In this document: positions 16,875 to 46,132 of the stretch, piece after piece
How the letters are laid out: the number at the start of each line of letters is the position of its first letter
Numbering within the stretch: position 1 is the first letter of the stretch
DNA from: a phage
Direction: 5' to 3' (one strand)
DNA: 60,053 nucleotides
Assembly (NCBI GenBank): GCA_012409925.1
Contig: GCA_012409925.1_4804.1
Notes under the pieces: model-generated
Seen by the model: the letters and a program-made list of their open reading frames with translations, nothing else
Databases searched by the model: none
What the model was told of the DNA's origin: nothing
Translations under genes and position numbers: made by a program

Positions 16875-16984
16875 CCACCCTCAAATAAGTATTGTGTATT
16901 ATATCTAATGAAAAAAACTTAGGCAAACAATAATTATGGTTTGAATATGTATAACAACCGATATAGCCGCGCCTTAATTAGTGT

Positions 16985-17260
16985 GATACGGATGATACGG
17001 ATAAAATGAGGCGTATTTTTATCCGTATCGGTGTATAAGCCGCGCTATCACTGGTGTGCTACGGATGATACGGATGATACGGATACTTTTCATATATAAG
17101 AGTTTATAAAAAAATAAAATTAAATTAGATATATAATTTTAAATTAATTTATTTGAATTCCTATATAGTACGGCGGCAACGCGTATCATCCGTATCATCC
17201 GTAAGATTCTTTTGAAAACAACAACTTACTTGATACGGATGATACGTCATTATACGTATA
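16985..17260. repeat. iteron cluster A: about 10 copies of GATACGGAT/ATCCGTATC in both orientations flanking a ~70-bp AT-rich block
   Basis: Direct reading: tandem copies at 16985-17002 and 17061-17086; inverse copies at 17021-17029 and 17182-17205; further copies 17232-17250; AT-rich block 17091-17170. Confidence 0.8.
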
Positions 17261-17437
17261 AAACTCGCGGCAATCCTTTGCCGATGAATTCAGTGAATAT
17301 TAAATAGCACTCCTGCCACTAAAACGCCAATCAACATCGAGTCATAAACAGCCCATTTCCAAGAAAGCAAAGAGTTGCAATTAATATTTCGCACTTTAAC
17401 ATAACGTGACTGAATAATCTTTTGCATAACTTCCTCT

Positions 17438-22410: not shown

Positions 22411-22413
22411 TTG

Positions 22414-23950: not shown

Positions 23951-23978
23951 GGCCAGATTCTTTCTGGCCATTTTTTTA
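23951..23978 (+). terminator. rho-independent terminator-like hairpin (plus strand)
   Basis: GGCCAG-attcttt-CTGGCC followed by ATTTTTTTAT; orientation-specific (no T-run on minus strand). Confidence 0.45.
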
Positions 23979-23991
23979 TCAGGAGTAAACC

Positions 23992-24222: not shown

Positions 24223-24310
24223 TACGATGCCATGGACGGCATAATTCACAAAAAGTTTGCCTTTCTGAAAGTCTGCGTTATAATCATATTAACTCAAAAC
24301 CGGAGGTAAT

Positions 24311-24970: not shown

Positions 24971-25166
24971 ATCGTTGGTGCAGTTGGAAGCTGAAACGAC
25001 TCGCCTGGGCCAATGCCGCCAATTCTGCTGGCCCAATCACCGCTGGCGTTGGGTCGGTATGGGATGGCGAAGGCCGTTGGGACTCGCTGTGTGGCACGCG
25101 CCTATTCTTTCGCGTAAAATAATTATCGCCCTTCCCGAAATGGGAAGGGCATTTAAAGAGGTTATC

Positions 25167-25508: not shown

Positions 25509-25546
25509 GGTTATAATACGGTTGTCGACAAAACGAGGACCGTAAA

Positions 25547-27883
25547 ATGCCAAGGCTAATATTCAAAAACAACTTTGAGGTCGCGCTTGCTCAGCCAACG
25601 ACGACTTCAGACACCACAATTACAATCCGCTCAGGGTCGGGCTTTCCGACCTTGGCCGCAAACGAGCGTGTAGTGGCGACAATCGTCGACGCTGCAACAG
25701 GCCTCCAATTCGAAATCATCACAGTAACAGCCGTCGTTGGTGATGTCCTGACCGTTCAGCGTGCACAGGAAGGGACTGCAGCGCGTGCATGGGCTGCTGG
25801 TGACATGCTTTCCATTCGAACAACTGCCGCGACTTTGACGGGTACTGTCCGAAACTTTGGCGTAATTCCTAATGGAGTAAACCTTAACGCGCTGAACGGA
25901 AGCTGGTTCGGGCAGTATTACCAACTGGCTGATTCTGGGGCATCAATATCACTCAACTATCCTGTCGCACAAGCGGGAATACTTGAAGTTTTACAAACGG
26001 GAGTTTCAACGAACGGATGTGTTCAGCGATACACACCTTACAACACTAACACTGTATACCAGAGGCTGTATAATGCCATCACATCAACTTGGCTTGATTG
26101 GGTTCAAGTTTATAATACGCAAAGCGTTATACCAGTCGCAAATGGCGGTACAGGACAAACGACCATCCAAGGGATGAAGTCTGCTTTTGGATTCGGAACG
26201 GTCGCTGATCAAAACATTGTTCCCACTTCAATGGGCGGTACGGGATCAGCAGACAATGCGCAAGCATGGTTGAATATTCGTCCACAAGGTTCAACGCCGC
26301 TCGCTGGTGATCCAGTTAACGATTATGATGCCACGACAAAGCGTTGGGTGGAAAACTTAGTTAACACAGGCACCGTTGGCCCAAGTATGAACGGCGTTAT
26401 GAACTATGGCGTTGGTGATTTCCATCTGCGTGACAGCCGTGCTTATATTCAACCATACGAAGTTGTTGCCGATGGGCAATTGTTAAACCGCGCTGACTGG
26501 CCTGAGCTTTGGGCGTATGCGCAAATGTTGACACCTATTGCCGATGCCGACTGGCTTGCGGACCCGCAAAAGCGCGGCAAGTATTCACTTGGTAACGGCA
26601 CAACAACATTCCGCGTACCGGACCGTAATGGCGTCCAGACAGGTTCTATATATGGTCTTTTCGGTCGAGGCGACGGCGGCACAAGTTCGAACGATGGGTT
26701 GGTATACCCTTCTGGCGCGCCAAATATCACAGGTACACCAGAAGTGACCATGATGTCGGGTTGGGGAACTGGGGGTGCTGTTCGAGGCAGGGGTGCTTTC
26801 ACACCGCAGACCACAACATCGACGCCTATTGGCGGTTCTATCACTGGATCTTATGTAAACATCGATTTTGACGCGTCAAAGTCAAACCCGATATATGGAA
26901 GAACAAGCACAGAGTTACGACCGAATAATTTCATCGGAGTTTGGGTGATTCGTGCATCGGGTGGATTTGTTGCTGCGAATACGACTTGGAGCGTTATTAA
27001 TGGTGACGCAGCAAAACCTGCAACCGGAACGCTTGTCAGAGGCGGTAGTGTAAAATCTGAATATAAGATTGGCACGAACATCGCGTATCAAGCATTCTTG
27101 CAGGCATACGGCAAGATTGATGGATCAACATCAGAATGTGGAGCAATAGTTTCAAATGGTGTACAAGAATGGAAGTTTGCGCAAGACGGTACATTTTATT
27201 TCCCTAACTCCATAAATCAAATTGGCACGGAAAGGTCAGACGGGGCGCTGAATGTTAATGCATATCTCAGACCAAAAGACCTTGTTGCGCAACCGTTGAA
27301 CTCAGTAGGCGTTTCAGCGTATGAAAGCAACGGCATGAGGATGATAAACTTCAACCAGTCAACACCTGGGTATGTATCATATTTTTCAGGGGATTGGTAT
27401 GCTGGCAGTTATACATTCGGAGGCGTTCGAGGCACCGGAACTGATTTGATGCACGCGCAAATATCCATAAACAATGGGCAAGGCGCTGCAGCAGACTTCA
27501 AATTTCTACCTGATGGTACTGCTACTGCAGGGAACTGGGTAAGCACGTCTGATGAAAGGGTAAAAACAAATATTCAAAGGATTTCCGACCCGTTAGGAAA
27601 GATGAGGTTGATCAAGGGTGTGACTTGGGAGCGCCTTGATAAGTCAGAGAAACCGAATGGCATCGGCTTTATAGCTCAAGATGTAGAAGGTGTATTCCCT
27701 GACGCAGTAAGAACTTTGAAATATTCAAACACGGAACTTAAGGATGGCACGGTTGTAGAGAATATCAAGTCAGTCGACACTTACGGAGTGGCAGCGGCAC
27801 TGCACCACGAGGCTATTCTCGCATTGATGGATCAAATAGATGAACTCAAGGCAGAGATAGCCGCGCTGAAAGCAGCGAAATAA
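25547..27883 (+). CDS. tail fibre protein with C-terminal intramolecular chaperone (S74-like) domain
   Basis: 778 aa, Gly/Thr/Asn-rich; C-terminus ...SDERVKTNIQRISDPLGKMRLIKGVTWERLDKSEKPNGIGFIAQDVEGVFPDAV...ALMDQIDELKAEIAALKAAK matches the autoproteolytic chaperone module of tail fibres and endosialidases. Confidence 0.8.
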   Translation: MPRLIFKNNFEVALAQPTTTSDTTITIRSGSGFPTLAANERVVATIVDAATGLQFEIITVTAVVGDVLTVQRAQEGTAARAWAAGDMLSIRTTAATLTGTVRNFGVIPNGVNLNALNGSWFGQYYQLADSGASISLNYPVAQAGILEVLQTGVSTNGCVQRYTPYNTNTVYQRLYNAITSTWLDWVQVYNTQSVIPVANGGTGQTTIQGMKSAFGFGTVADQNIVPTSMGGTGSADNAQAWLNIRPQGSTPLAGDPVNDYDATTKRWVENLVNTGTVGPSMNGVMNYGVGDFHLRDSRAYIQPYEVVADGQLLNRADWPELWAYAQMLTPIADADWLADPQKRGKYSLGNGTTTFRVPDRNGVQTGSIYGLFGRGDGGTSSNDGLVYPSGAPNITGTPEVTMMSGWGTGGAVRGRGAFTPQTTTSTPIGGSITGSYVNIDFDASKSNPIYGRTSTELRPNNFIGVWVIRASGGFVAANTTWSVINGDAAKPATGTLVRGGSVKSEYKIGTNIAYQAFLQAYGKIDGSTSECGAIVSNGVQEWKFAQDGTFYFPNSINQIGTERSDGALNVNAYLRPKDLVAQPLNSVGVSAYESNGMRMINFNQSTPGYVSYFSGDWYAGSYTFGGVRGTGTDLMHAQISINNGQGAAADFKFLPDGTATAGNWVSTSDERVKTNIQRISDPLGKMRLIKGVTWERLDKSEKPNGIGFIAQDVEGVFPDAVRTLKYSNTELKDGTVVENIKSVDTYGVAAALHHEAILALMDQIDELKAEIAALKAAK

Positions 27884-27892
27884 TTCACTCAA

Positions 27893-27918
27893 GGCGCTGA
27901 AAAGCGCCTTTACTTTAT
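27893..27918 (+). terminator. rho-independent terminator after tail fibre gene
   Basis: GGCGC-tgaaaa-GCGCC hairpin followed by TTTACTTTAT. Confidence 0.55.
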
Positions 27919-27936
27919 GAGCGATTAAGTTATACT
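27909..27936 (+). promoter_or_regulatory. candidate sigma70-type promoter
   Basis: TTTACT (27909-27914), 16-nt spacer, TATACT (27931-27936); overlaps terminator T-run; precedes GAGGTG RBS and ATG 27964. Confidence 0.35.
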
Positions 27937-27963
27937 CATTATACGTTAACAAGTGAGGTGTTT

Positions 27964-28170
27964 ATGGAAATTAAAGTGTTGTCCGATTTTGTAAAAAGTA
28001 TCGAAGCCAAAGGCATGACCATCAAGGCCAAAGGCAGTCTCGTTTGCATCGATAAACAGCAAAGCGATCAAAGCATATCACTTGATGATATCAAAACGAT
28101 GCAAAAGCTCAATAAGAAAGGTGCGTTGCACGAGTTCTTAACGGATATTGGAGCAGTGGACAATGGATAA
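27964..28170 (+). CDS. hypothetical protein, 68 aa
   Basis: ATG 27964 with GAGGTG RBS within track ORF 27958..28170. Confidence 0.45.
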   Translation: MEIKVLSDFVKSIEAKGMTIKAKGSLVCIDKQQSDQSISLDDIKTMQKLNKKGALHEFLTDIGAVDNG

Positions 28171-28264
28171 AGAGGCACGGCGCTTTGCATTTTGGGCAAC
28201 CGTTTGCATTTGCTCTATTCTTGGAATCGTTTATTCAATCATTCATGCCGCAACTGTATCATGA
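28163..28264 (+). CDS. small hydrophobic peptide, 33 aa (below ORF-track cutoff)
   Basis: ATG 28163 overlapping upstream stop; MDKEARRFAFWATVCICSILGIVYSIIHAATVS; its stop overlaps the next ATG (ATGA), suggesting translational coupling. Confidence 0.3.
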   Translation: MDKEARRFAFWATVCICSILGIVYSIIHAATVS

Positions 28265-28638
28265 TTATTGACATCGAAAAAGCGCTCAAGCGCGAACTGA
28301 CGCCAGGTGCAACTCCTGGCGAAGAAGCCTATTACCGACCCAAGTCGCAGCGCACCAATGATATTCCGGTCAAAAGGCGCGGTCCAAGGAATTTCAAAAC
28401 ATCAAATATCAAAAAGGAACGCCTTTCTTTACATAAAAGACTTTTGAATAGGCTTGATATCATGGGTTGCCAAGCTTATGTCGACCAAGCTGGCCAAGTT
28501 TGGGTAAAAATTGGCAATAGTACACGCCTACAGAAAGGATTACCCTGTGGAGAGTGCAGACCTATGGAAAAGACAGACCGATTGGCTACTGGCCGCGAGA
28601 TTGCGGAAAGCTGGCTTAAATTTTTCTTGGACCTTTGA
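28261..28638 (+). CDS. hypothetical basic protein, 125 aa
   Basis: In-frame ATG 28261 of track ORF 28192..28638 (track start is TTG); Arg/Lys-rich. Confidence 0.4.
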   Translation: MIIDIEKALKRELTPGATPGEEAYYRPKSQRTNDIPVKRRGPRNFKTSNIKKERLSLHKRLLNRLDIMGCQAYVDQAGQVWVKIGNSTRLQKGLPCGECRPMEKTDRLATGREIAESWLKFFLDL

Positions 28639-28645
28639 GGTTAAC

Positions 28646-28894
28646 ATGAATCAAAATGAATCAGTAGCATTCTTACAATGGCTGGAAGGTGTGGTGGAGT
28701 ATAACGCGGCAAGCGACCGTTTCACCTTTCAAGGTAAAAGCTACAAGCGCAAAGGTCAAGCCCAGAAAGCAGCGCGCAAGTACTGGAAAGAAGTTTATTC
28801 AGAATTTTTCTCTCAAATGGGAATCATCGGCTCAACGGTATCCGGCGACCCTGCGCAATTGGTATCGATTGATGAATCCAATCGTCACAATTAA
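28646..28894 (+). CDS. hypothetical protein, 82 aa
   Basis: ATG 28646 with GAGG RBS in track ORF 28511..28894. Confidence 0.45.
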   Translation: MNQNESVAFLQWLEGVVEYNAASDRFTFQGKSYKRKGQAQKAARKYWKEVYSEFFSQMGIIGSTVSGDPAQLVSIDESNRHN

Positions 28895-28969
28895 TAAATC
28901 GATTTGAATGGCGCGCTATGCGGCTTTATTATAGTTATTGTTAATCACCCAAATATTAAAGGTAATGAT

Positions 28970-29383
28970 ATGTCAAATAAAAATGATTCTATGAGCCATA
29001 CTTACACTAAAGGCAGCGGCACTGCTTTTGGTTCCAGCATCAAACTTGACGCTCCTGGTTTGCACATCCACAACGTTAATGAAAAATCTGATGTAAGCAG
29101 TCGTGATTTGTCTTTGGTTCTTAAAAATCAACTCGCCTTGGAATCACGGTTGGATAATATTGAGAAGTCGCTGGAAAGTTTGCGCGACCAGCTTTATGGG
29201 CCTTGTCCTGTTGCGGATGATTCAAAGACAGTTAATGTAAATTACGGATTGATCGATAATATGCTTGGAGTCACGTCGCGCTCTGCTGTTAAGGCATATA
29301 ATATTGAAAATCTGATTGGGCAGATTGCTGATGGCTTCGGCACATCTTGCCTTACAGGTATTGAAAGCGATTTCAGTGAATAG
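28970..29383 (+). CDS. hypothetical protein, 137 aa
   Basis: ATG 28970 with AAAGG RBS in track ORF 28904..29383; followed by terminator. Confidence 0.45.
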   Translation: MSNKNDSMSHTYTKGSGTAFGSSIKLDAPGLHIHNVNEKSDVSSRDLSLVLKNQLALESRLDNIEKSLESLRDQLYGPCPVADDSKTVNVNYGLIDNMLGVTSRSAVKAYNIENLIGQIADGFGTSCLTGIESDFSE

Positions 29384-29403
29384 TTGGTAGTGTTGATTTA
29401 ACC

Positions 29404-29445
29404 GTGAATCGTGGGTCGTGGGTCGTGGGTCGTGGGTCGTGGGTC
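29404..29445. repeat. perfect heptamer tandem repeat (GTGGGTC)x5 preceded by one degenerate unit GTGAATC
   Basis: Direct reading: units at 29411, 29418, 29425, 29432, 29439. Confidence 0.95.
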
Positions 29446-29467
29446 GCTTAGTGCGGCCCTTTATTTT
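29441..29467 (+). terminator. rho-independent terminator overlapping last repeat unit
   Basis: GGGTCGC-ttagt-GCGGCCC (one mismatch) followed by TTTATTTT. Confidence 0.45.
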
Positions 29468-30062
29468 GCCTGCCGCGCAGGAGTGTACTGCAAATTTCCT
29501 GTGGGTACAAAATAGTACGGTACTGTCTAGGACTTTTTCTTTGAAAGTTAGTGGACCAAATGTGTCGTATTTTGATTAGTGTACCGCAAATTCCATCAAG
29601 TACCAAAACGCACCAAAAGACCCATGCCATAAAAACCACACGAACGCAATAATCAATCGCCGTTACAGTTTCCAGCGTTACAATTCGAAAGCGAATGATT
29701 CGACGCATAATAATATGAAGCATAATGATTCGAAAGCGAACGATTGCGTGTAGGATAATATCGGTGGGGATTATTCTAGATGCATGTAATTTCGCATGCG
29801 TACTATTTTCGGACGAAGGGTCGGCATATTCCTCGTTTTAGTTCGGAACGAAGGGAAAGTTTTGCGCCTTTATAAAACAACGACTTACGCGACCCGCCCT
29901 AACGGTCCGATATAGGTGTCTATATAAAACAAGGACTTACACGATGTTCTCCATTTAACGTAATACCTGTTATGCGAACTAAGGCGCATCTCGACGAAGA
30001 TTATGCGACGACGAAGGGAAGGATAAAGGAGTTTTCGCGGAGAAGCGCATCGAGATAGGGAC

Positions 30063-30088
30063 GAAGAAAAGCCGCGACTAAGCGCGGC
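30063..30088 (-). terminator. rho-independent terminator ending the minus-strand island operon
   Basis: On minus strand GCCGCG-cttagt-CGCGGC followed by TTTTCTTC. Confidence 0.5.
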
Positions 30089-30114
30089 CTATTAGTAACG
30101 GTGGGTAATTATAA

Positions 30115-30324
30115 TTAAAGGAATAATCCGGCGCGTTTAATTTGTCCCAGGACGTTATCGCGCTTACGACGCATAACCGCGTATTTAACCTCTTCTTCGT
30201 ATCCCCAGCCGCCGATGGATAACATCGCGTTCATATTATCGCATAATTCCTTAAGTTCGCGGAACATATCGATGACGGCGGTACGATGGGCGCGCGCATT
30301 AAGAGAGTTATTCATATTATTCAT
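30115..30324 (-). CDS. small protein, 69 aa
   Basis: ORF track; GGAG RBS overlapping stop of upstream gene; TAA stop. Confidence 0.5.
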   Translation of the reverse strand: MNNMNNSLNARAHRTAVIDMFRELKELCDNMNAMLSIGGWGYEEEVKYAVMRRKRDNVLGQIKRAGLFL

Positions 30325-30335
30325 TTTTCTTCTCC

Positions 30336-30626
30336 TTAAAGGCTTACGATTTTAAAGAAAGTTACTTCGCCGCCGAGTTGCGGGACAGCGATATATTCGC
30401 CGCCGATTTCGGTAATCGTATAGACGAAGCCGTTGATGGTTACGCGGTAGGATACTACGTCCTCGTCGCGATACTTGTAAAGGTCGAGGAGGTTGATCGG
30501 CTCATAAATAGACTCGATAGTCGCGTCTACGTTAGAGAGATAAACGCTCTCTAAGGTTTCGCCAAATACGTTAGAGTTTTCGGAAGTCTCGACGCGAGCG
30601 GAACGGATAGCGGCTAAAGTAATCAT
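30336..30626 (-). CDS. small acidic protein, 96 aa, paralogue of 31262..31546
   Basis: ORF track; AGGAG RBS; net charge about -10; no His/Cys/Trp; shares VY..NVD.TIE and VN.NG(Y/F)...EIG segments with the divergently transcribed paralogue. Confidence 0.6.
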   Translation of the reverse strand: MITLAAIRSARVETSENSNVFGETLESVYLSNVDATIESIYEPINLLDLYKYRDEDVVSYRVTINGFVYTITEIGGEYIAVPQLGGEVTFFKIVSL

Positions 30627-30693
30627 AATAATCTCCTAGCTGGGAGGGCGGGTAGCGACCTATTCGCTACCTCATCCCCTCTCGATATAAAAC

Positions 30694-30722
30694 ATTATAG
30701 TCTTAGTGTACGAAGAAGTAAA
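30694..30722 (-). promoter_or_regulatory. near-consensus sigma70-type promoter (island copy 1)
   Basis: Minus strand reads GTGCTTTACT-17 nt-TATAAT; -35 at 30717-30722, -10 at 30694-30699. Confidence 0.55.
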
Positions 30723-30733
30723 GCACTTTTTCG

Positions 30734-31036
30734 TTATTCTGCGATAAAATATTTATAAGCCTTATCGCCTTCTACGTCGATATACTCGACGATAATTAAC
30801 GCTTCGCCGCGCGGCGTAACCGTCTCGATAAGGGTAACGGCTTCGTCGTCGGTCTTCGCGAATCGGATTGCGCTACGTTCGGCGTATTTAATTTCGTCGA
30901 AGGAGAGGCCGACGAAAGCGACGGCGCGGACCTTAATGGCGCTAGATTCTAGTTCCGCGTTAACGGCGGCGATAAGAGAGCGAACGGTTAAGCGGTCTTC
31001 GTCGTAAGTAAGGATAGAAGAGATTAAAGTGGTCAT
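30734..31036 (-). CDS. small acidic protein, 100 aa
   Basis: ORF track frame; start at ATG 31036 (GGGAG RBS); no His/Cys/Trp/Gln; TAA stop. Confidence 0.55.
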   Translation of the reverse strand: MTTLISSILTYDEDRLTVRSLIAAVNAELESSAIKVRAVAFVGLSFDEIKYAERSAIRFAKTDDEAVTLIETVTPRGEALIIVEYIDVEGDKAYKYFIAE

Positions 31037-31093
31037 AATAAAACTCCCGATGCTATTAGAAGGAAGGGCCATCGCCCGTCTCGATATAAACAA

Positions 31094-31121
31094 GTATACG
31101 CGAGTGTACGAAGAAGTAAAG
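31094..31121 (-). promoter_or_regulatory. near-consensus sigma70-type promoter (island copy 2)
   Basis: Minus strand reads CTTTACT-16 nt-TATACT with the same TTCTTCGTACAC spacer core as copy 1. Confidence 0.5.
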
Positions 31122-31165
31122 AAAAAAAGATAAAATAATTTATCGCATTTTTATCGAAAAAGTGC

Positions 31166-31193
31166 TTTACTTTTTTCTACACTATATTATAAT
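31166..31193 (+). promoter_or_regulatory. near-consensus sigma70-type promoter (island copy 3)
   Basis: AGTGCTTTACT-16 nt-TATAAT; -35 at 31166-31171, -10 at 31188-31193; shares GTGCTTTACT and TACACT with copies 1 and 2. Confidence 0.55.
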
Positions 31194-31261
31194 GTACTCA
31201 TATCGGGACGGGATGAGTTAACGAATAGGTCGTTAACGCCTCTCCCAACTAGGAGTTTAAA

Positions 31262-31546
31262 ATGGCTATTCTTAACGTTTCTTCTATCCGTAACGCTATC
31301 GTCGAGAACTACGGCGTAAAACAAATTTTATCCGAAGTCTACGCCGCGAACGTAGACCAAACTATCGAGGCGGGTGGGGTAACGGTCGCCGAGGCTTTTA
31401 AACTTTACGCGGCGTTACCGGAATCGGACCGCGAAGCCTTCGAAGTAAACGTTAACGGATATTTCTTCGAAGCGGTCGAAATCGGTAATATCTTACTCGT
31501 TATGGGCGAAGAAGAATTTGAGACCTTCTCCCTCGTCGAAGCGTAA
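31262..31546 (+). CDS. small acidic protein, 94 aa, paralogue of 30336..30626
   Basis: ORF track; AGGAG RBS; net charge about -15; no His/Cys/Trp. Confidence 0.6.
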   Translation: MAILNVSSIRNAIVENYGVKQILSEVYAANVDQTIEAGGVTVAEAFKLYAALPESDREAFEVNVNGYFFEAVEIGNILLVMGEEEFETFSLVEA

Positions 31547-31626
31547 GAGAGGATTTTTAGAGCGTCGTGCGCGGCGCTTTAATAAAATTCTTTCGCGCCT
31601 AGCGCCCTAACAAATAGGAGTTTATT

Positions 31627-32253
31627 ATGGTTAGCTTAAATCGTTTCTCGACTAGCGGCGACGTTATCGCAACTAAGACCGCCGACCTCGTTGCATTTTA
31701 TAATGCAAATTCCGGTTCGAAGCCGATTAAGAAATTTGCGGACCGCCGGACCGCCGAGACTCGCGTAATCGCGTTAATCGAGTCCTTAAACGCGCTCGAT
31801 GAGCCATCCAATGAATCGCCCATTCCCGACGCGAAGCCGCGCGAGGAAGTGTCCAGCGATGTAAAAACGCATAAGGCGCGTGCGGTCGTTAAAAAGGCTG
31901 AGCCGACCCAGGAAGAACTCGACGCGATGAGCGATGAAGAATATGAAGCCTTCGTTAAGAGCGGCTTAAACGATAGTGCAAATTGCGTAGTACAAAATGG
32001 AACTCCTTCCCATCGCCGTTCGAATAGCGAAGGTATTGCAAAAAGTTGGGATAATAAGGAAGTGGCGCAAAAGCGTCTTACCCGTAACGGCGTTATGGTC
32101 GAGGGTGTAGGCGAGTTCAAATCGGTCCGCGCAGCATTCGCCGCGCTGGGCTTACCGGACAGCAAGCATATTCGCTTCCGCATGAAGCTTAAAGAAGCTG
32201 GACGCTTGAACTTCGAGTTCGGCAACAAGTCCTTCACCTTCCAGATTATCTAA
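31627..32253 (+). CDS. hypothetical protein, 208 aa
   Basis: ORF track; AGGAG RBS; composition switches mid-gene from the island dialect to ordinary coding. Confidence 0.5.
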   Translation: MVSLNRFSTSGDVIATKTADLVAFYNANSGSKPIKKFADRRTAETRVIALIESLNALDEPSNESPIPDAKPREEVSSDVKTHKARAVVKKAEPTQEELDAMSDEEYEAFVKSGLNDSANCVVQNGTPSHRRSNSEGIAKSWDNKEVAQKRLTRNGVMVEGVGEFKSVRAAFAALGLPDSKHIRFRMKLKEAGRLNFEFGNKSFTFQII

Positions 32254-32260
32254 TCAAATG

Positions 32261-32285
32261 GCGGCCCTTCGAGGTCGCTTTTCAT
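32261..32285 (+). terminator. terminator-like hairpin
   Basis: GCGGCC-cttcga-GGTCGC (one G-U pair) followed by TTTTCAT. Confidence 0.35.
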
Positions 32286-32303
32286 AGTGCAAATTGGTGG
32301 CTT

Positions 32304-32567
32304 ATGAACACGCTTATTCTCATCGCTACGTTGTCCATCGGAAGTGGTCGCACCTTATCGCTGTACGACCATAGTGCAAATTGCGCTTACCCTACGCGCG
32401 TTGCGGCAATAGTTAATAGTGCAAATCGAATGCTATTCGAGACTTGTTGGCGGGTCGATAACGAGAAAGGGCGCATCATCTTAGGTTATAGTGCGAATCT
32501 GCTGGTGGAGTCGTTCGATTGGACGGTTGAAGGTCGTAAATTGTTACGTAAGGTGACTAAAAGATGA
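32304..32567 (+). CDS. hypothetical protein, 87 aa (carries three in-frame motif copies)
   Basis: ORF track; GGTGG RBS; ATAGTGCAAAT-type motif occurs three times in frame as Ser-Ala-Asn, so coding status is uncertain. Confidence 0.35.
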   Translation: MNTLILIATLSIGSGRTLSLYDHSANCAYPTRVAAIVNSANRMLFETCWRVDNEKGRIILGYSANLLVESFDWTVEGRKLLRKVTKR

Positions 32568-32681
32568 CTTATAATAATACACTTTCTAACGCGTTTATGG
32601 TTGTAACCTTCCCCGTCGTATTACCGATGGCCCTAGAAGTGGAGAAAATGTGTTCTAGGGCCGTTTTATAGTGCAAATTGG

Positions 32682-33155
32682 CTAGTGGCGGGAGAATTGC
32701 TCGCCTTCTTTGGCCGCCTCTCCGAAATCCTTGTAGAAATCGTCCATGGAACGGCCCATTTTACTATTGCCGTTTTCATCAATCATCGTGATGCCGTAGA
32801 TGATGTTCAGTTCACGAATAGCATTAAGCTTGGCTGACGCCGCGACTTCTGGATCACGCACAAGCTTGACCAAATTGTGAATTGCACCTTTTACGCTCCA
32901 CAAATCCTTGAGTGGCATCTCTTCCATACGCTTTTTGAAGCGCATCTTGTAGTATGGATTGCGTTGCGTGCAAAGGATTCGCTGGCCAGTGTAGTTATCC
33001 GTTGCAACTTCCATTCCAAATACTAGTGCAAAAGCTGCGCGCATGTCATGGCCCTGAATAACAAGGTCAATGAACTCATCGAATAAAGCCTGATTGTGCT
33101 CTGCAAATCGCGGGTCTTCAAAGTCTTCAGGCATCGCTACATAATCTTGACTCAT
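32682..33155 (-). CDS. hypothetical protein, 157 aa (small-terminase candidate, speculative)
   Basis: ORF track frame from ATG 33155 (MSQDYVAMPEDFEDPRF...); ordinary codon usage; start codon abuts three tandem motif copies. Confidence 0.4.
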   Translation of the reverse strand: MSQDYVAMPEDFEDPRFAEHNQALFDEFIDLVIQGHDMRAAFALVFGMEVATDNYTGQRILCTQRNPYYKMRFKKRMEEMPLKDLWSVKGAIHNLVKLVRDPEVAASAKLNAIRELNIIYGITMIDENGNSKMGRSMDDFYKDFGEAAKEGEQFSRH

Positions 33156-33280
33156 AGTGCAAAATCCCATAGTGCAAATTAATAGTGTGAATTATACAAT
33201 GGATGGACATTATATTCAAGTGCAGATTGATGTTCATTATGGCTATAAACATACACAAATCATAGTGCTGAATGAATAGC

Positions 33281-33874
33281 GGACCGTGGTGCGTGGTGTA
33301 CTGTTTGATACGTATAAAATAAATCCATCCCTTTTGCCGCTTGTTATGCAAATCAATGACTTAGCCGCTGCTGGCTGGTTGAAGCGTATCATGACGTATC
33401 ATCCGTATTGCCGCAAGTCTTTGTTTTTACTTATATCTTACGGATAATACGTATAAATATAAGTTTAGTATAAGTATGAGGATGTAGAAAAAAAATTAAT
33501 TTAAATGTTTTTAAAATGGAGTTAATTAATTTTTAGAATTATTCTGGTTACAATAAGAAAAAATGGCGTATCATCCGTATCATCCGTATGAGTGTACCAG
33601 TAGAATCCAGGCGCGGCGCACCTTACAGCCATGATACGTCTCAATACGGCCAAAAACCTATCCGTAAGAGTGTACGCATCAACCAAAGAATCCAGGCGCG
33701 GCGCACTCTTCCACACCACACACCACGGTTCAATCTCCAAAATCCACACACTAAAAGTCACAATCACCGTATCATTCTCCAAAAATAAATCCAAATTTCC
33801 ATTTTATTTATTATTTTCATCCACAATATCCTAAATTCCATCCGTATCAACCAAGCCTCAACCCACCACGGTCC
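33281..33874. repeat. iteron cluster B: ATCCGTATC-type repeats, 19-bp direct repeat and AT-rich block, bracketed by 11-bp inverted repeat
   Basis: GCGTATCATCCGTATCATCCGTA at 33567-33589 identical to 17181-17203; further copies at 33385-33410, 33437-33457, 33631-33649, 33659-33668, 33766-33777 and 33841-33851; GAATCCAGGCGCGGCGCAC at 33603 and 33688; GGACCGTGGTG (33281) / CACCACGGTCC (33864). Confidence 0.8.
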
Positions 33875-33982
33875 ACGCCACTCACTTCAAAATTTCCATC
33901 AAAAACGACAAAAGGCCGCATAAAGCGACCAATTGTACACGTCCCATTATTCAAAACACGTAAAACAGTGTCCGTTTATTTG

Positions 33983-34519
33983 CTACAATTTAGGCATTAA
34001 TCCTTTGTCAATCCGTCTTTTTATCTCTTCCTCTATCATTTTATTGGTGACTTTATAACCAATCCTTTCTAATTCCAGCAATACTTCCTTTTGGTGTTTC
34101 TTTATTTTTACAATGTCAACCGTATCCCTCCAATAAGATAATACCTTCTTAATGATTTCCTTTTCCATTTTATATCTGGCAGTTGTCATGTATTTCATTT
34201 TAAATATAGAGTTGATTGCGTCAGTCTTCAACCACTCGCCTCTCAACTCAGGGTGATCATCCCAAAGAGCTATGGCAAACTCTTGCGGGCTTTTACATCT
34301 TTTTCTAAGCTCAATTATATAGTCGACCGTTTTCGTTTTCTTATCCAACCTTGCGCGGCAAACTTTGCACTCTTCCTTGAGTAACCATTCAGCCTTATTA
34401 CTTTGCGACGCTGATTCATTATCCCTTCTGTAGCTGCCGCATATACTTATTCCTTCATTATCCAAGAAGTAATGCAAGTCTTTAGAGTATTTAGCTTTAC
34501 GCCAAAAGCCGCCCATCAC
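33983..34519 (-). CDS. hypothetical Lys-rich protein, 178 aa
   Basis: ORF track; AT-rich codon usage differing from neighbours. Confidence 0.45.
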   Translation of the reverse strand: MMGGFWRKAKYSKDLHYFLDNEGISICGSYRRDNESASQSNKAEWLLKEECKVCRARLDKKTKTVDYIIELRKRCKSPQEFAIALWDDHPELRGEWLKTDAINSIFKMKYMTTARYKMEKEIIKKVLSYWRDTVDIVKIKKHQKEVLLELERIGYKVTNKMIEEEIKRRIDKGLMPKL

Positions 34520-41422: not shown

Positions 41423-42070
41423 TTATCCTGTGGCCTGCATATTGCGTACATACTTCTGCTCTAATGAATAGATGAAGTCGGCGACCGTCAATCCTTTGGT
41501 GTGCCATTCATACATGGTGAAGCCTGTATTCAGGAAATAGCCGCGCACCTTGTCCATCGCTTCAGCTTCCTCCATTGAAGCCATCAGCGCGGCGACGTTG
41601 TCATAAGAAGGCACAAATCCCTTCTTGCGTAGCGCATTGCGCAAATCTTTAGTTCTGAAGCCAATCTTGCAAGGGTCATCGCGACCCGTGGATGATGCAA
41701 CCTTCGGTAGCGCAAGGAACTCTTTAAGGAACATGGCAATGTTCAAGTCGCCTGCATCATCAAGCTTTTGGATTCGGTTGCGACCGCGACCCTTGAATTC
41801 ACTCGCACGAGGGTGAGCGCCAAAACAGTGCGCCCCTTCCAGCTTAGGGTCAATGATCATCACATCTTTCCCGATGCGCAGCTCTACGTAGTAAAGATAA
41901 GACTCATCGACAAGCTTTGTACGCTTGCAAGTGATTGAGTCCTTATCATAACCAAAGCCACGCAACACGGTTGAGATCATTCGGTTCATTTCTTCGCCGT
42001 GAACGTCACTTTCTTTGTTCAGTTCACCAAGATGTTGAAAGAATTTAGCGATGTTGATTGCTTTATTCAT
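41423..42070 (-). CDS. hypothetical protein, 215 aa
   Basis: ORF track; immediately downstream of helicase gene. Confidence 0.45.
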   Translation of the reverse strand: MNKAINIAKFFQHLGELNKESDVHGEEMNRMISTVLRGFGYDKDSITCKRTKLVDESYLYYVELRIGKDVMIIDPKLEGAHCFGAHPRASEFKGRGRNRIQKLDDAGDLNIAMFLKEFLALPKVASSTGRDDPCKIGFRTKDLRNALRKKGFVPSYDNVAALMASMEEAEAMDKVRGYFLNTGFTMYEWHTKGLTVADFIYSLEQKYVRNMQATG

Positions 42071-43740
42071 CAGAATTCATCCTTATCTCTTCCCAAAGAA
42101 CGTTTACGCTCAATAACCTTCTTCAAGAATTCAATATCTTCAGGGTCAGACTCATCGCGGATAAGATACGCTAAGATGGTCATCAAATCAGAAATGTATT
42201 CTCCTGCTTCATTCTTAATCAGCGGCGTAAAGTACCCGCGCTGGTTGCGATAGGTTGCAGGCTCAAAACCAAGCTTCGACATGTGCGGCGCAAGGGTACG
42301 AGAGAAAGGCGACTTGCCACACTTCGCTCTGAATCCCATAGCAATAGCACCACTGGTGATGTGCCAGCGTCCGCTGTGATGTCGGTCATAAGGCGCGGTG
42401 ATGACGACTTCAACAAGGTCGTTGTCCACCATCTCATCACGGATAACGCCGCGCGCACGTTCCATTTCGTTTTTACTGAACTCAGTAAGCATTCGAGATG
42501 TTTCACCAACAAACGCGTTATAGCCTGCTTCGCCGTTCTTCTCCATCCACGCAGCGCACTCAGCCATAAGCTGCCAAACGTCTTCTTTCAAAGTGGAAAG
42601 GTCGGCTTGGAAGTCCTTAGACCAGTTCGGTTGCCCGTCCTTGTCAGCGAGTTGGCCAACAAAGATAGGGTACACACGACGGTTGCCCGTGTCGTCACGC
42701 TGCATGCCTGCGTATTCGTTGCCGTCCATGATCGCAATCCACTGGCGTGGTTTAACCTGCGTATCTTCAAATTTGAAGTCCAGGTCATCTTCCGTCTTAG
42801 TCAGGAATGCTTTCATGTTTTCGATGTCGGCCTTTTTAAAGCCTGTCATCTCGCCGACGTTCGCGATAATTGAGCGACCCGTAATAGCTCGCAAGAACGG
42901 GTTGAAGTTTTGCGCGGCTAAGTTCAACGGAATCGGTGTTGCGTGGCGGTCGTTCATAATAGCTTCGCAAAGCAGCTTGCTAAAATAACTCTTCCCTGCG
43001 TTCTGGCCGCCGATGAGCGCGATGGAGATTGGCGCTTGACAGCCAGGGTTGGTCAGGCGGTTGTAGAGCGATAGCCAAAAATACACACCGATTTGTCGGT
43101 TTAACTCTGTATCGAACGGTCGGAATAGCTCGATAAGGTATTTCTCGATGCGCGCAGTACCGTCCCATTCAGGCAGCTTCTTGTAGAAGAAGTCCATCAG
43201 GTCGTCGCGCTGATAACGCATGGCCCATTCCTTATAGGATTGAGCGACCTGACGTGAGTTTGGGTTGGACAACCCTGCTGCGTCGACAGCAGCGACTATC
43301 TCTGTGACTTCCAAGGTACGGTCAGTGAATGTTTCGCCGCGATGGTCGACTAAGCGCCCACGAAAAGTATCTTTGTGAGGGAATGGAACAATGCCACTTC
43401 CCTTATCAAACAACGCGTCGAAAACCGCATAACGGTTCATGTCACTCGTCCGGTCTGCCTGTAGAACGAAGTCATCTTTGGTAGGCTTGTAGTGAGGGAA
43501 CTTGATTACCTGAAGTGAGGCGAGCAAGCGTGCTCTTTCAACCAAGTCTTCTTCACCGTAGCATTCCATGCGCTCTGAATCTTTTTCAACAGCTTTGTGT
43601 TGAAGGCTGATTTTAGCTCTGGTGCCTTGCTGCTCTGCTGCCTGCATTTCTTCCGAAACACCTGCATCTTGAATTTCGTCAAAGATTGCACCAAATTCAT
43701 CACCTGTATCCTCTGGAAGATTGTCATTATTAATTGACAT
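42070..43740 (-). CDS. VirE/D5-like replicative NTPase (helicase-primase-associated)
   Basis: 556 aa; P-loop ...IALIGGQNAGKSYF...; conserved LPEWDGTARIEKYL segment; AGGAGG RBS. Confidence 0.6.
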   Translation of the reverse strand: MSINNDNLPEDTGDEFGAIFDEIQDAGVSEEMQAAEQQGTRAKISLQHKAVEKDSERMECYGEEDLVERARLLASLQVIKFPHYKPTKDDFVLQADRTSDMNRYAVFDALFDKGSGIVPFPHKDTFRGRLVDHRGETFTDRTLEVTEIVAAVDAAGLSNPNSRQVAQSYKEWAMRYQRDDLMDFFYKKLPEWDGTARIEKYLIELFRPFDTELNRQIGVYFWLSLYNRLTNPGCQAPISIALIGGQNAGKSYFSKLLCEAIMNDRHATPIPLNLAAQNFNPFLRAITGRSIIANVGEMTGFKKADIENMKAFLTKTEDDLDFKFEDTQVKPRQWIAIMDGNEYAGMQRDDTGNRRVYPIFVGQLADKDGQPNWSKDFQADLSTLKEDVWQLMAECAAWMEKNGEAGYNAFVGETSRMLTEFSKNEMERARGVIRDEMVDNDLVEVVITAPYDRHHSGRWHITSGAIAMGFRAKCGKSPFSRTLAPHMSKLGFEPATYRNQRGYFTPLIKNEAGEYISDLMTILAYLIRDESDPEDIEFLKKVIERKRSLGRDKDEF

Positions 43741-45049: not shown

Positions 45050-46132
45050 CTATTTTATGCCACCTGCACGACGATTTATCATGTCAAGTTGATTCTCAAT
45101 ATAAGGCATGACGATTGCTTCAACAAAAGCAGTCCAACCTTTCTTGCCTTCCCCTTTCCGGTGGCAGTCGTGGGCGCAACCGAACACAAATTCATGTTCT
45201 GCACCAGGGATAGGGCCGCGAAAGTACGCGCCATACGGGTCGCCGTTGGTGTGCTCTTCACCCCAAGGGCAGATTATGCGGCACTTGCCTGACATATTCT
45301 CGATGACGTCGCCATCAGACCCTTCACCCATCTTGTTGCGCGCTAGAATCTGCTGGGCTATTTTATACCAAACAGCATCGTACTTGTATTCATCTACGTC
45401 AATTTGAATCTCACGCTTTTGCGGCATAACGACGTGAAAGCCGAATGCCTGACAGATGTCTTCGATGGTGTAGCGCAAGGAGTAGTCTGCATGGACAAGT
45501 CGGCAGCGGAACGGGTCGCCGTTCTCATCGACATATTTATAGGGGCCGTCGTGAGTCACACGCTTGTTGTTGATGCACCCAGGAACACGGCCCACGCGCG
45601 TTACGTCTTTAATCGTGTTGTCGCCGCCCTTCTTGAGTACCATGTTAACGAAAGACCCAAGGAACGCTTTGAACTGAATAAGATGGTCAATCGGTTCTTT
45701 AAAGAAGTACCAAAGCTGGTGGTTGTTCGGTGAAGTCTCGACGATGACAGTCGGCTTCAGTCGCTCGAAAAAGAATTCCAAATCTAAATCGCCTTTGGAC
45801 CCTTTACCGTGACCGATGTCGTCGACCATCATCGCCATACCGTGACCAAAGGCCGACTCTGTACGCCAGTATCGCATCTCACCCGTCTTTGGGTTGGGAG
45901 ACTTACGCATTGAACTGATGCACGCATAGCCGTTTTGGTGCTGCATGAGCGGCTTGCCCAACTTCCAAGGCTTAGGCCAGAAGCTGCTGTTAATCTTCTT
46001 GCCGCGCTCGTCAGTCTGCACCGTTGCTTCAGGAGCAAACACCGTCATGACGCGCTCATCTTCTGGGATGCCTCTTTGGAGTTCTGTTAAAAACTCTTCA
46101 ATTATTTTTGCTTCTTCTCTTAAACTAGCCAT
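45050..46132 (-). CDS. DNA primase-polymerase (PrimPol-like) with C-terminal zinc-binding primase domain
   Basis: 360 aa; ...MAMMVDDIGHG... and ...ETSPNNHQLWYFF... motifs; C-terminal CPWGEEH...CAHDCH Cys/His cluster. Confidence 0.55.
   Translation of the reverse strand: MASLREEAKIIEEFLTELQRGIPEDERVMTVFAPEATVQTDERGKKINSSFWPKPWKLGKPLMQHQNGYACISSMRKSPNPKTGEMRYWRTESAFGHGMAMMVDDIGHGKGSKGDLDLEFFFERLKPTVIVETSPNNHQLWYFFKEPIDHLIQFKAFLGSFVNMVLKKGGDNTIKDVTRVGRVPGCINNKRVTHDGPYKYVDENGDPFRCRLVHADYSLRYTIEDICQAFGFHVVMPQKREIQIDVDEYKYDAVWYKIAQQILARNKMGEGSDGDVIENMSGKCRIICPWGEEHTNGDPYGAYFRGPIPGAEHEFVFGCAHDCHRKGEGKKGWTAFVEAIVMPYIENQLDMINRRAGGIK

What the first reader, a model, noticed from the sequence alone, without database searches (positions are those of the whole stretch)
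33281..33874. Iteron cluster B: second copy of the 23-mer, 19-bp direct repeats, bracketed by an 11-bp inverted repeat
An 830-bp non-coding interval holds ATCCGTATC-type repeats (33385-33410, 33437-33457, 33567-33589, 33631-33668, 33766-33777, 33841-33851), an AT-rich block (33440-33560), two copies of GAATCCAGGCGCGGCGCAC (33603 and 33688) and a perfect 11-bp inverted repeat GGACCGTGGTG / CACCACGGTCC (33281 and 33864) enclosing the block. Two loci 16 kb apart sharing an identical 23-mer suggest one DNA-binding protein acting at both, or two origins. The inverted-repeat bracket also leaves open a miniature inserted element.
Basis: partly seen in the sequence, partly recalled or inferred. Interest (0 to 1): 0.7.

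Follow-up and report, generated by a model that had tools for sequence, protein, structure and literature searches.

The report
Phage replication origin holding the genome end
This non-coding stretch of an E. coli phage (genus Wifcevirus) is one of two copies of a symmetric repeat-plus-AT-rich module that most likely acts as a replication origin, and this copy also contains the exact point where the packaged DNA molecule begins.

Summary
The 812-bp gap (33171-33982) holds 9-bp repeats (CGTATCATC type), an 82% AT centre, a 20-nt direct repeat and the 11-bp inverted repeat. The reading needs revision.

The window is a Wifcevirus. The gap lies directly upstream of the small terminase gene. Five related records with terminal repeats start at window 33517|33518, inside the AT centre, in a core (AAAAT|GGAGTTAATT) invariant in all 11 aligned genomes.

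Clusters A and B are paralogous, dyad-symmetric modules: outer repeats, inner repeats, AT centre, then the mirror image. They are the only two in the genome.

Both modules recur in Kylevirus and Pbunavirus; copy B recurs in at least three further lineages. Each lineage has its own repeat sequence, and where both copies were read it changes in both.

The phage encodes a helicase whose best structural match is SaPI1 Rep1, with a fast-evolving C-terminal winged helix. In several relatives its gene sits immediately upstream of module B. This fits the SaPI origin design and the SPP1 oriL/oriR layout.

Best reading (about 0.5): twin iteron origins, with copy B also carrying the packaging cut. Rivals are small-terminase binding sites or a transcription control region. 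The inserted-element idea is rejected.

The parts
33171..33982 (.). Module B: the whole non-coding interval between the small terminase gene and the last gene of the early operon
   Evidence: ORF list. Aligned across 11 Wifcevirus genomes. No Rfam family matches.
33455..33566 (.). AT-rich centre (112 bp, 82% AT) between the two inner repeat arrays; proposed DNA-unwinding element
   Evidence: Composition. The equivalent centre in module A (17085-17180) is also 82% AT.
33513..33527 (-). Terminus core AAAAT|GGAGTTAATT. The left physical genome end and terminal-repeat boundary falls between 33517 and 33518. Genome base 1 is the complement of 33517, reading leftward.
   Evidence: Records of WFC, WFH, Mansfield, SP13 and Ro157lw start here, 359-360 nt upstream of the terminase ATG. 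The core is invariant in all 11 aligned genomes. AACTCC|ATTTT is present at 359-361 nt in 9 of 10 further assemblies.
33491..33534 (.). AT palindrome (arms AAAAATTAATT / AATTAATTTTT) enclosing the terminus
   Evidence: pair I12. Folding as a single-strand hairpin is not significant, z = -1.57.
33436..33457 (-). Inner repeat array on the terminal-repeat side (TCTTACGGATAATACGTATAAA)
   Evidence: Near-invariant in 11 genomes, with substitutions in some at 2-3 positions.
33384..33410 (+). Outer repeat array on the terminal-repeat side (GCGTATCATGACGTATCATCCGTATTG). It forms an inverted pair with the inner array across a spacer of about 25 bp.
   Evidence: family D1, pair I8.
33566..33591 (+). Inner repeat array on the unique side (GCGTATCATCCGTATCATCCGTATGA). 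It contains the 23-mer shared with cluster A.
   Evidence: Retained in every sequence type of the hypervariable side.
33631..33669 (.). Outer repeats on the unique side (ATGATACGTCTCAATACG and TATCCGTAAGA)
   Evidence: pairs I6, I14.
33602..33621 (-). GC-rich motif, copy 1. It reads GTGCGCCGCGCCTGGATTCT on the minus strand and is followed by GTACACTC and a repeat.
   Evidence: The CCAG(G/T)CGCGGCGC motif is kept in all Wifcevirus variants. MyoSmar has GGTGCGCCGCGACTGGG as an inverted pair.
33687..33706 (-). GC-rich motif, copy 2 (identical 20-mer)
33281..33299 (+).
   Evidence: pairs I1, I4, I9. Near-invariant in 11 genomes, with one substitution in RCIP0319.
33700..33900 (+). C/A-rich, G-poor flank holding ACACCACACACCACGGT (33713-33729), the right inverted-repeat arm CACCACGGTCC (33864-33874) and two repeat-like sites (33766-33777, 33840-33851)
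   Evidence: Composition. The mirrored G-C asymmetry around module B is seen in 5 genera, but is weak or absent around module A.
33191..33219 (-). Near-consensus sigma-70-type promoter (TTGAAT-17-TATAAT) for the small terminase gene
33914..33930 (-). Intrinsic-terminator-like hairpin ending the upstream early operon
32682..33155 (-). Small terminase (TerS) gene
   Evidence: Matches PDB 7UXE, the small terminase of Pbunavirus E217, with E = 7e-34. The Mansfield ortholog is annotated as small terminase.
29616..33517 (-). Inferred direct terminal repeat (about 3.9 kb)
   Evidence: Near boundary. Far boundary from homology to WFH and Mansfield, GGGTCTTT|TGGTGCG.
16875..17437 (.). Module A, the paralog upstream of the head maturation protease. 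Repeat arrays at 16983-17002, 17021-17029, 17060-17084, 17181-17205 and 17231-17258. AT centre at 17085-17180. Promoter TTGCCT-17-TATAAT at 16898-16926.
   Evidence: It is 96-98% identical across the genus.
42070..43740 (-). Candidate repeat-binding initiator: a 556-aa VapE-like SF3 helicase with a C-terminal winged helix
   Evidence: Pfam PF05272, E = 1e-28. PDB 7PDS (SaPI1 Rep1 with DNA), E = 2.9e-11 by sequence and 2e-16 by fold over about 480 columns.
45050..46132 (-). RepB'-type primase gene, part of the phage replication set
   Evidence: Pfam PF16793, E = 4.5e-36.

Best explanation
The interval is one of two paralogous, dyad-symmetric modules. From the outside in, each has an outer 9-mer array, a 25-35 bp spacer and an inner 9-mer array in the opposite direction. 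A roughly 100-bp centre of 82% AT follows, and then the mirror image.

I read both modules as replication origins for the phage's own SaPI-Rep1-like self-loading helicase (gene at 42070-43740). The steps below are inferred:
1. The helicase's C-terminal winged helix reads the 9-mers.
2. One hexamer assembles on each inner array.
3. The AT centre melts.
4. The phage's RepB'-type primase and its polymerase take over.

Copy B (this finding) sits at the ancestral origin position, just downstream of the helicase gene and just upstream of the small terminase gene. It has a second job that is shown by homology: the packaging cut. The left end of the virion DNA, which is also the boundary of the roughly 3.9-kb direct terminal repeat, lies at 33517|33518 in the invariant core AAAAT|GGAGTTAATT. 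Module A lacks this core.

Copy A lies inside the head-gene cluster. It would be a second origin, or an SPP1-oriR-like site where bound initiator stalls forks and promotes concatemer synthesis.
For: Repeats and paralogy:
- The repeats are confined to two loci.
- A and B are paralogous.

Conservation with lineage-specific repeats:
- Both modules recur in Kylevirus and Pbunavirus. Copy B recurs in Bcepfunavirus and three metagenomic lineages. The equivalent region in Myosmarvirus holds the terminal-repeat boundary, but I did not define its repeats.
- Each lineage has its own repeat: CGTATCATC; AATAACCG/AATATCCGA; GGTAATTTG; ATAGTTAAC; TATCCGCAAGA; ATCCGCAA; CAGATAG/TATCCGG.
- Where both copies could be read, the repeat is the same in A and B.

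Candidate initiator:
- The phage encodes a Rep1-like helicase. AlphaFold pLDDT is 88.7 and the best PDB match is 7PDS (E = 2e-16). The C-terminal domain has winged-helix topology.
- That winged-helix domain is the fastest-evolving part of the protein across 8 lineages: 13-36% identity, against 48-70% for the ATPase domain.
- The helicase gene lies immediately upstream of module B in E217, Maja and L027. One small gene intervenes in MyoSmar and L025.

Known systems with the same design:
- SaPI origins lie immediately downstream of rep. They have short iterons on both sides of an AT-rich centre, pointing in opposite directions, and load two hexamers (PMC9371898).
- SPP1 has two origins of similar organisation, one of them interrupting the head-gene cluster (PMC6316719).

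Terminus:
-.
- In Kyle, MyoSmar and PS44/Ab28 the end also falls in or at the edge of the AT centre of module B.
- The features shared by A and B (repeats, GC motif, AT centre) cannot themselves define the end, because A has them all and no end is reported there. That argues the shared function is something other than cutting.
Against: - There is no experimental evidence for origin activity or for any protein binding these repeats.
- Adjacency to the small terminase gene, together with the terminus, is what a pac site looks like. Arrays of short repeats flanking a cut site are also the design of SPP1 pac and, from my own knowledge, of P1 pac.
- In this genome the helicase gene is about 8 kb from module B, so the SaPI rule 'origin immediately downstream of rep' holds only in relatives.
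- The repeats are 9-mers, longer than the 5-6-mers of SaPIs.
- The local G-C asymmetry around B has the opposite sign to a classical origin skew.
- The recognition-helix region of the winged helix is nearly identical in this phage and in lineage L026, although my repeat calls for the two differ.
- Later GenBank records may have been oriented by copying WFC, so the five matching record starts are not all independent.
Confidence: 0.5

Rival explanations
1. Packaging recognition site. The 9-mers are binding sites for the ring-shaped small terminase on both sides of the cut, as with SPP1 pacL/pacC/pacR or P1 pac. The large terminase then cuts at AACTCC|ATTTT. Module A would be a second small-terminase-binding locus with no cut core, for example one that couples head-gene expression to packaging.
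For: - The terminus lies in the centre of module B in four genera, and the small terminase gene is immediately adjacent.
- SPP1 TerS binds pacL and pacR, which flank the cut site pacC.
- Features found only in B, namely the invariant core and the mirrored G-rich/C-rich flanks, show that B has a packaging-related specialisation.
Against: - This reading gives no clear reason for module A to be conserved at 96-98% inside the head-gene cluster in every genus.
- E217 small terminase showed no appreciable DNA binding in vitro, according to a review (PMC9611059).
- The N-terminal domain of the small terminase is not unusually divergent between lineages with different repeats: 23-54% identity, similar to the rest of the protein. 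The helicase's winged helix is.
- In Kyle the sequence around the cut is about 85% identical in A and B by eye.
Confidence: 0.25
2. Transcription control region. The repeats bind a phage regulator that times or boosts the near-consensus sigma-70 promoters of the small terminase gene and of the head protease / major capsid operon. The AT-rich centre would act as a bent or UP-like element, or as a promoter itself.
For: - Each module sits 100-350 bp upstream of a 10/12 sigma-70 promoter match.
- In Pbunavirus JG024, a sigma-70 promoter was predicted inside the AT centre of the A-equivalent, and unexplained 'AT-rich boxes' were noted (PMC3008698).
Against: - A dyad-symmetric unit of about 300 bp with four repeat arrays and a 100-bp centre of 82% AT is far larger than typical operator or activator sites.
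- No other late operon has the repeats.
- The best A-versus-B alignment is inverted relative to the downstream genes in this genus but direct in Kyle and Pbunavirus. This suggests that orientation relative to the promoter is not constrained.
- This reading does not explain the terminus.
Confidence: 0.12
3. Miniature inserted mobile element bracketed by the 11-bp inverted repeat.
For: An exact 11-bp inverted repeat lies at 33281 / 33864.
Against: - An inverted repeat of this length arises in 11% of composition-matched simulations.
- The block is present at the same place in all 21 Wifcevirus genomes and in other genera, and no empty site was found.
- The right arm is absent or altered in most relatives, while the left arm is near-invariant.
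- There is a third copy of the motif inside the block (pair I4).
- No target-site duplication is evident.
Confidence: 0.02

Closest known systems
SaPI replication origins with their Rep initiator-helicases (SaPI1 Rep1, SaPI5 PriRep5; PMC9371898)
   Same: - A self-loading SF3-type hexameric helicase with a C-terminal winged helix. The phage protein's best structural match is Rep1-DNA, 7PDS.
- Short repeats on both sides of a central AT-rich region, pointing in opposite directions.
- The origin lies immediately downstream of the helicase gene in several relatives of this phage.
- A primase gene lies nearby.
   Different: - The element is a virulent 68-kb myophage, not a satellite island.
- The repeats are 9-mers in tandem arrays, with an additional outer set, rather than 5-6-mers.
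- There are two copies per genome.
- In this genome the helicase gene is 8 kb away.
- The AT centre also holds the packaging end.
- Sequence identity to Rep1 is only about 17%.
Bacillus phage SPP1 oriL / oriR (initiator gp38; PMC6316719)
   Same: - Two origin-like loci of similar organisation (repeats plus an AT-rich unwinding element), bound by one phage initiator and about 13 kb apart.
- One lies with the replication genes. The other interrupts the late head-gene cluster.
- From my own knowledge of the SPP1 map, oriR lies between gene 7 and the scaffold gene. That is the same relative place as module A, which lies between the MuF-like / head-fibre genes and the protease.
- The second copy is proposed to stall forks and trigger the theta-to-sigma switch.
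   Different: - The SPP1 initiator is not an SF3 helicase; it uses a separate DnaB-type helicase and a loader.
- oriL lies inside the initiator gene.
- SPP1's pac site is a separate locus, and SPP1 packages by headful rather than with fixed terminal repeats.
Terminase recognition regions built from flanking repeats (SPP1 pacL-pacC-pacR; P1 pac, the latter from my own knowledge)
   Same: The cut site lies between two sets of short repeated protein-binding sites, next to the small terminase gene.
   Different: Those sites are single-copy. Here an equivalent module with no reported end exists 16 kb away. No terminase binding has been shown, and E217 small terminase bound DNA poorly in vitro.
Satellite phage P4 ori / crr with the alpha primase-helicase (from my own knowledge; not retrieved)
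   Same: One SF3 primase-helicase with a C-terminal winged-helix origin-binding domain acts on the same short repeats at two separated loci, and both matter for replication.
   Different: P4 is a small plasmid-like satellite. Its two loci are 4.5 kb apart and are not associated with a genome end.
T7 concatemer junction (phiOR / pacB, terminal repeat, phiOL; from my own knowledge)
   Same: Origin-type elements (a promoter plus an AT-rich region) are reused at an internal primary origin and next to the terminal repeat, where they take part in end formation.
   Different: T7 elements are RNA-polymerase promoters, not iteron arrays. The T7 terminal repeat is 160 bp, not 3.9 kb.

Membership tests
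Iteron-type replication origin of the SaPI Rep class | The element encodes a self-loading SF3 helicase-initiator with a C-terminal winged-helix domain | tested here: met
   Pfam VapE-like domain, E = 1e-28. 7PDS by sequence, E = 2.9e-11. AF2 model with pLDDT 88.7 and winged-helix topology at residues 436-504. Best fold match is 7PDS, E = 2e-16, over about 480 columns.
Iteron-type replication origin of the SaPI Rep class | Short repeats on both sides of a central AT-rich region, with at least two per side and in opposite directions | tested here: met
   Inner arrays at 33436-33457 (minus sense) and 33566-33591 (plus sense) flank 112 bp of 82% AT. Module A has the same layout.
Iteron-type replication origin of the SaPI Rep class | [quoted passage not shown] | tested here: inconclusive
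   Not met in this window: rep is at 42070-43740, about 8 kb from module B, with many small ORFs between. Met in relatives E217, Maja and L027, and nearly met in MyoSmar and L025, where one small gene intervenes.
Iteron-type replication origin of the SaPI Rep class | The initiator binds the repeats and melts the AT region, and the locus supports replication | not testable with these tools
   Needs EMSA or footprinting, permanganate probing, a plasmid replication assay, or marker-frequency analysis.
Twin-origin layout (SPP1 oriL/oriR type) | Two loci with the same repeats plus an AT-rich element, one of them in the late head-gene cluster | tested here: met
   SPP1 description.
Terminase recognition/cleavage (pac-type or terminal-repeat boundary) site | A physical end of the virion DNA maps inside the element | tested here: met
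   Met by homology only. Five related records start at the position equivalent to 33517, and the core is invariant. No reads from this phage were available.
Terminase recognition/cleavage (pac-type or terminal-repeat boundary) site | The small terminase binds the site specifically | not testable with these tools
   The only indirect information is that E217 small terminase showed no appreciable DNA binding in vitro. The DNA used in that assay is unknown to me, because the primary paper is not held.
Miniature inverted-repeat transposable element | Terminal inverted repeats with a target-site duplication, and presence/absence polymorphism as a unit | tested here: not met
   No empty site in 21 genomes. 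The right arm is not conserved. The inverted repeat is not significant on its own.
DnaA-box (host initiator) origin | Clusters of TTATNCACA boxes | tested here: not met
   Read directly from the sequence. The nearest match, TTATCCGTA, differs at the critical CACA positions. The repeats change between phages of the same host range group.

The most novel reading that the evidence does not exclude
Replication initiation and packaging initiation share one nucleoprotein site. The terminase cuts inside the origin's unwinding element, at AACTCC|ATTTT. Synthesis fired from the origin, starting at that same point, duplicates the 3.9-kb terminal repeat, so that every genome in the concatemer receives a full copy. 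The second module acts as an SPP1-oriR-like fork trap that switches the phage to concatemer synthesis. The mirrored G-rich flanks would protect the freshly cut ends, in a Chi-like orientation. This coupling would be conserved across the Pbunavirus-Wifcevirus clade, including members that package by headful.
Probability: 0.15. Interest if true: 0.8.

Novelty: new variant of a known kind. Interest (0 to 1): 0.6.

Why it matters
Wifcevirus and its Pbunavirus relatives include widely used therapeutic phages. Their origins of replication and packaging signals are undefined, and reports on Pbunavirus genome ends contradict each other.

This analysis supplies:
- two concrete candidate origins;
- a candidate initiator, the Rep1-like helicase;
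- a precise cut-site core.

All three are testable with simple assays, and all matter for rebooting and engineering these genomes. If the origin and the packaging cut really share one site, that would be an unusual coupling of replication and encapsidation. It would also suggest a route by which long direct terminal repeats are duplicated, a step that remains poorly understood.

Tried and rejected
- **Hairpin or cruciform in the AT centres.** Single-strand DNA folding is not better than shuffles: B has z = -1.57, A has z = +0.20, and the GGACCGTGGTG hairpin has z = 0.07.
- **GC-rich motif as a genome-wide phage promoter.** I tested the GCCGCGCCTGG motif against the 'CTGGG' promoter motif reported for Pbunavirus 14-1. 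There are only 10 loose matches in the window, mostly inside genes. I did not pursue it further.
- **ncRNA.** No Rfam match across 16700-34100.
- **Small ORFs inside the gap** (33522..33794 minus; 33588..33788 plus; 33631..33834 plus). They lie in sequence that is hypervariable and full of indels across the genus, so I treat them as non-coding.
- **DnaA boxes.** Rejected by eye.
- **Genome-scale GC skew.** It follows transcription direction and is uninformative.
- **True inversion of module A relative to B.** The best alignment is inverted in this genus and direct in Kyle and Pbunavirus. Because the module is dyad-symmetric, I cannot claim a real inversion.
- **Carpasinavirus XcP1.** No obvious module upstream of its small terminase gene.
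- **Literature not available.** The primary E217 terminase paper is not held. The transcription-start tables for phage 14-1 are not held either.
- **Covariation to identify the binding protein.** With only 8 lineages the result is suggestive for the helicase winged helix, not decisive.

Full report
**Identity and setting**

The window is a Wifcevirus, an E. coli myophage of about 68 kb plus a terminal repeat. The finding region and cluster A both match WFC, WFH, Mansfield, ECML-117, FEC19 and Bas98-101.

The finding lies in an 812-bp non-coding gap (33171-33982) between two minus-strand genes. The gene on the left (32682-33155) is the small terminase. It matches PDB 7UXE, the decameric small terminase of Pbunavirus E217, with E = 7e-34. 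Its Mansfield ortholog carries the same annotation. The gene on the right is the last of a long early operon, and a terminator-like hairpin follows it at 33914-33930.

- ATCCGTATC occurs 9 times in the window against 0.33 expected, and only in the two clusters.
- The core CGTATCA has 16 of its 23 hits in the clusters, with background numbers elsewhere.
- The complete Bas99 genome has exactly two clusters.
- TRF reports a 9-bp period.
- The centre between the inner arrays is 82% AT over 112 bp.
- The 20-nt direct repeat is highly non-random, with 0 of 1000 simulations reaching that length.
- The 23-mer shared with cluster A is exact.
- The 11-bp inverted repeat is exact, but it is not significant alone, since 11% of simulations contain one as long. 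It belongs to a CACCACGG motif family with a third copy at 33713-33729.

The GenBank records of WFC, WFH, Mansfield, SP13 and Ro157lw either carry a terminal repeat of about 3.7 kb at both ends or annotate one predicted by PhageTerm. All of them begin 359-360 nt upstream of the terminase ATG.

Mapped onto the window, genome base 1 is the complement of 33517. The boundary is therefore ...AATTAACTCC|ATTTTAAAA... on the gene-forward strand. It sits inside the AT-rich centre, between the arms of an AT palindrome (pair I12). The far boundary of the repeat maps to 29615|29616.

In an alignment of 11 Wifcevirus genomes, the core AAAAT|GGAGTTAATT is invariant while neighbouring AT positions vary. In 9 of 10 further assemblies, AACTCC|ATTTT lies 359-361 nt from the ATG.

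Later records may have been oriented after WFC, so these starts are not all independent. WFC/WFH (Korf et al.) and Mansfield (PhageTerm) come from different groups.

**Anatomy**

Both clusters share one dyad-symmetric plan. From the outside in there is an outer array of two or three 9-mers, a 25-35 bp spacer and an inner array of two or three 9-mers in the opposite direction. An AT-rich centre of about 100 bp follows, and then the mirror image. A GC-rich motif (GCGCGGC core) accompanies the arrays in both modules.

A and B align over about 200 bp in this genome and over 250-300 bp in relatives. The best alignment is inverted here but direct in Kyle and Pbunavirus. Given the dyad symmetry, I do not claim a real inversion.

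Each module lies 100-350 bp upstream of a 10/12 sigma-70 promoter match, one for the terminase gene and one for the head protease operon.

Two features are specific to B:
- the invariant cut core;

**Comparative evidence**

The terminal-repeat side of module B is nearly invariant across the genus. The unique side is hypervariable, with at least four sequence types and large indels. Yet every type retains the inner repeat array, the GC motif, the outer repeats and a CACCACGG-type motif. That pattern indicates selection on the motifs rather than on the surrounding sequence. No genome lacks the block, so the inserted-element idea fails.

Beyond the genus, the same two-module layout appears in:
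- Pantoea phage Kyle: the A-equivalent is upstream of the protease, the B-equivalent is upstream of the small terminase, and the record start falls in the B centre;
- Pbunavirus PS44/E217: the fixed read end reported by Essoh et al. lies at the edge of the B centre.

Module B alone was also found in:
- Burkholderia phage Maja;
- three metagenomic lineages.

In Serratia phage MyoSmar the PhageTerm boundary lies 387 nt upstream of the small terminase, in an AT-rich zone flanked by a 25-bp inverted repeat. I did not define its repeats.

Each lineage has its own repeat, related around an ATCCG/AWCCG-like core. Where both modules were available, the lineage-specific repeat is enriched in both. This co-variation is the strongest evidence that one phage-encoded protein reads both loci.

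**Which protein, and what for**

The phage encodes a 556-aa VapE-like SF3 helicase. It matches SaPI1 Rep1 (PDB 7PDS) by sequence, with E = 2.9e-11. A confident AlphaFold model (pLDDT 88.7) has 7PDS as its best fold match, with E = 2e-16 over about 480 columns. Its C-terminal domain has winged-helix topology.

SaPI Reps are self-loading initiator-helicases whose winged helix reads short iterons. The SaPI origin lies immediately downstream of rep. It has an AT-rich centre with iterons on each side in opposite directions, and it is thought to load two hexamers (PMC9371898).

In E217, Maja and L027 the helicase gene sits immediately upstream of module B. In MyoSmar and L025 a single small gene intervenes. 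In Wifcevirus and Kyle a block of small genes has been inserted between them.

Across eight lineages the winged helix is the fastest-evolving domain of the helicase, at 13-36% identity against 48-70% for the ATPase. The terminase N-terminal domain is not unusually divergent. This is suggestive only. One counter-example exists: the recognition-helix region is nearly identical in Wifcevirus and L026.

SPP1 gives a precedent for the pair. It has two origins of similar organisation bound by one initiator. One of them interrupts the head-gene cluster and is proposed to stall forks and trigger concatemer synthesis (PMC6316719).

**Weighing the readings**

The features shared by A and B cannot be what defines the end, because A has them all and no end is reported there. 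The shared function is therefore something else, and an origin fits best. The B-specific core and flanks account for the cut.

The main rival is that the repeats are small-terminase binding sites in the manner of SPP1 pacL/pacR. It explains B well but leaves the deep conservation of A unexplained. It is also not helped by the reported weak DNA binding of E217 small terminase.

A purely transcriptional role is possible, given the adjacent promoters and the JG024 promoter prediction. It does not explain the size, the symmetry or the terminus.

I put the twin-origin-plus-cut reading at about 0.5, the terminase-site reading at 0.25, transcription control at 0.12, and the inserted element at 0.02.

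**Literature**

In the searchable library I found no description of these modules, of an origin, or of a pac site for Wifcevirus or Pbunavirus. One paper places Pbunavirus origins in the replication genes by GC skew. In this window that skew simply follows gene orientation.

Noticed in passing
window 20451, 24896, 32501, 44348, 45715: The E. coli Chi octamer GCTGGTGG occurs 5 times against 1.19 expected (0 of 100 shuffles reach 5), and 4 of the 5 are on the + strand. The copy at 32501-32508 lies in the terminal repeat about 1 kb from the left end, in the orientation that would be active for RecBCD entering at that end. A one-mismatch variant, GCTGGTTG, lies at 33374-33381.
   Followed up: partly
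window 33700-33900; also E217 L017, MyoSmar L018, Maja L024, Kyle L014: Around module B, but only weakly or not at all around module A, the upstream flank is G-rich and the terminase-side flank is C-rich (G minus C of up to +23 and -26 per 60 nt). As a result, on both sides the G-rich strand has its 3' end pointing to the cut. In this window roughly 200 nt of the + strand are almost free of G. The function is unknown; end protection and Rho loading are two ideas.
   Followed up: partly
window 29560-29616; Kyle L013 about 3603-3660: The far boundary of the terminal repeat is at a homologous position in Wifcevirus and Kyle. In both it is followed 33-40 nt outside the repeat by a conserved GTACACTAATCA. 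GTACAC(T) also recurs next to repeats in module B (33590-33597 and 33668-33675, as GAGTGTAC).
   Followed up: no
window 33518-34519: The unique-side half of module B and the adjacent gene 33983..34519 exist in at least three or four unrelated sequence versions among Wifceviruses. This is a mosaic hot spot right at the terminal-repeat boundary.
   Followed up: partly
window 16898-16926 and 33191-33219 (minus strand): Near-consensus sigma-70 promoters (TTGCCT-17-TATAAT and TTGAAT-17-TATAAT) drive the head protease operon and the small terminase gene. Genes usually regarded as late would thus be readable by unmodified host polymerase. By eye, similar promoters precede the orthologs in Kyle and MyoSmar.
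   Followed up: partly
window 45050-47803: A RepB'-type primase (PF16793) and a Dda-like SF1 helicase are transcribed divergently from about 46132-46619. Together with the VapE-like helicase, this gives a replication set that mixes IncQ-plasmid-like and SaPI-like parts.
   Followed up: no
window 33602-33621 and 33687-33706 (minus-strand reading GTGCGCCGCGCCTGGATTC): The GC-rich motif contains CCTGG(A/G). Published work on Pbunavirus 14-1 reports a phage-specific promoter class with a CTGGG core about 5 bp from the start site. If the two are related, both copies would fire toward the AT centre and the terminase gene. A loose genome-wide search did not support a general promoter motif.
   Followed up: partly
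window 16875-17437 compared with the SPP1 genome map: Module A sits between the MuF-like / head-fibre genes and the protease-scaffold gene. SPP1 oriR occupies the same relative slot, between gene 7 and the scaffold gene. This could be convergence or an old arrangement.
   Followed up: no
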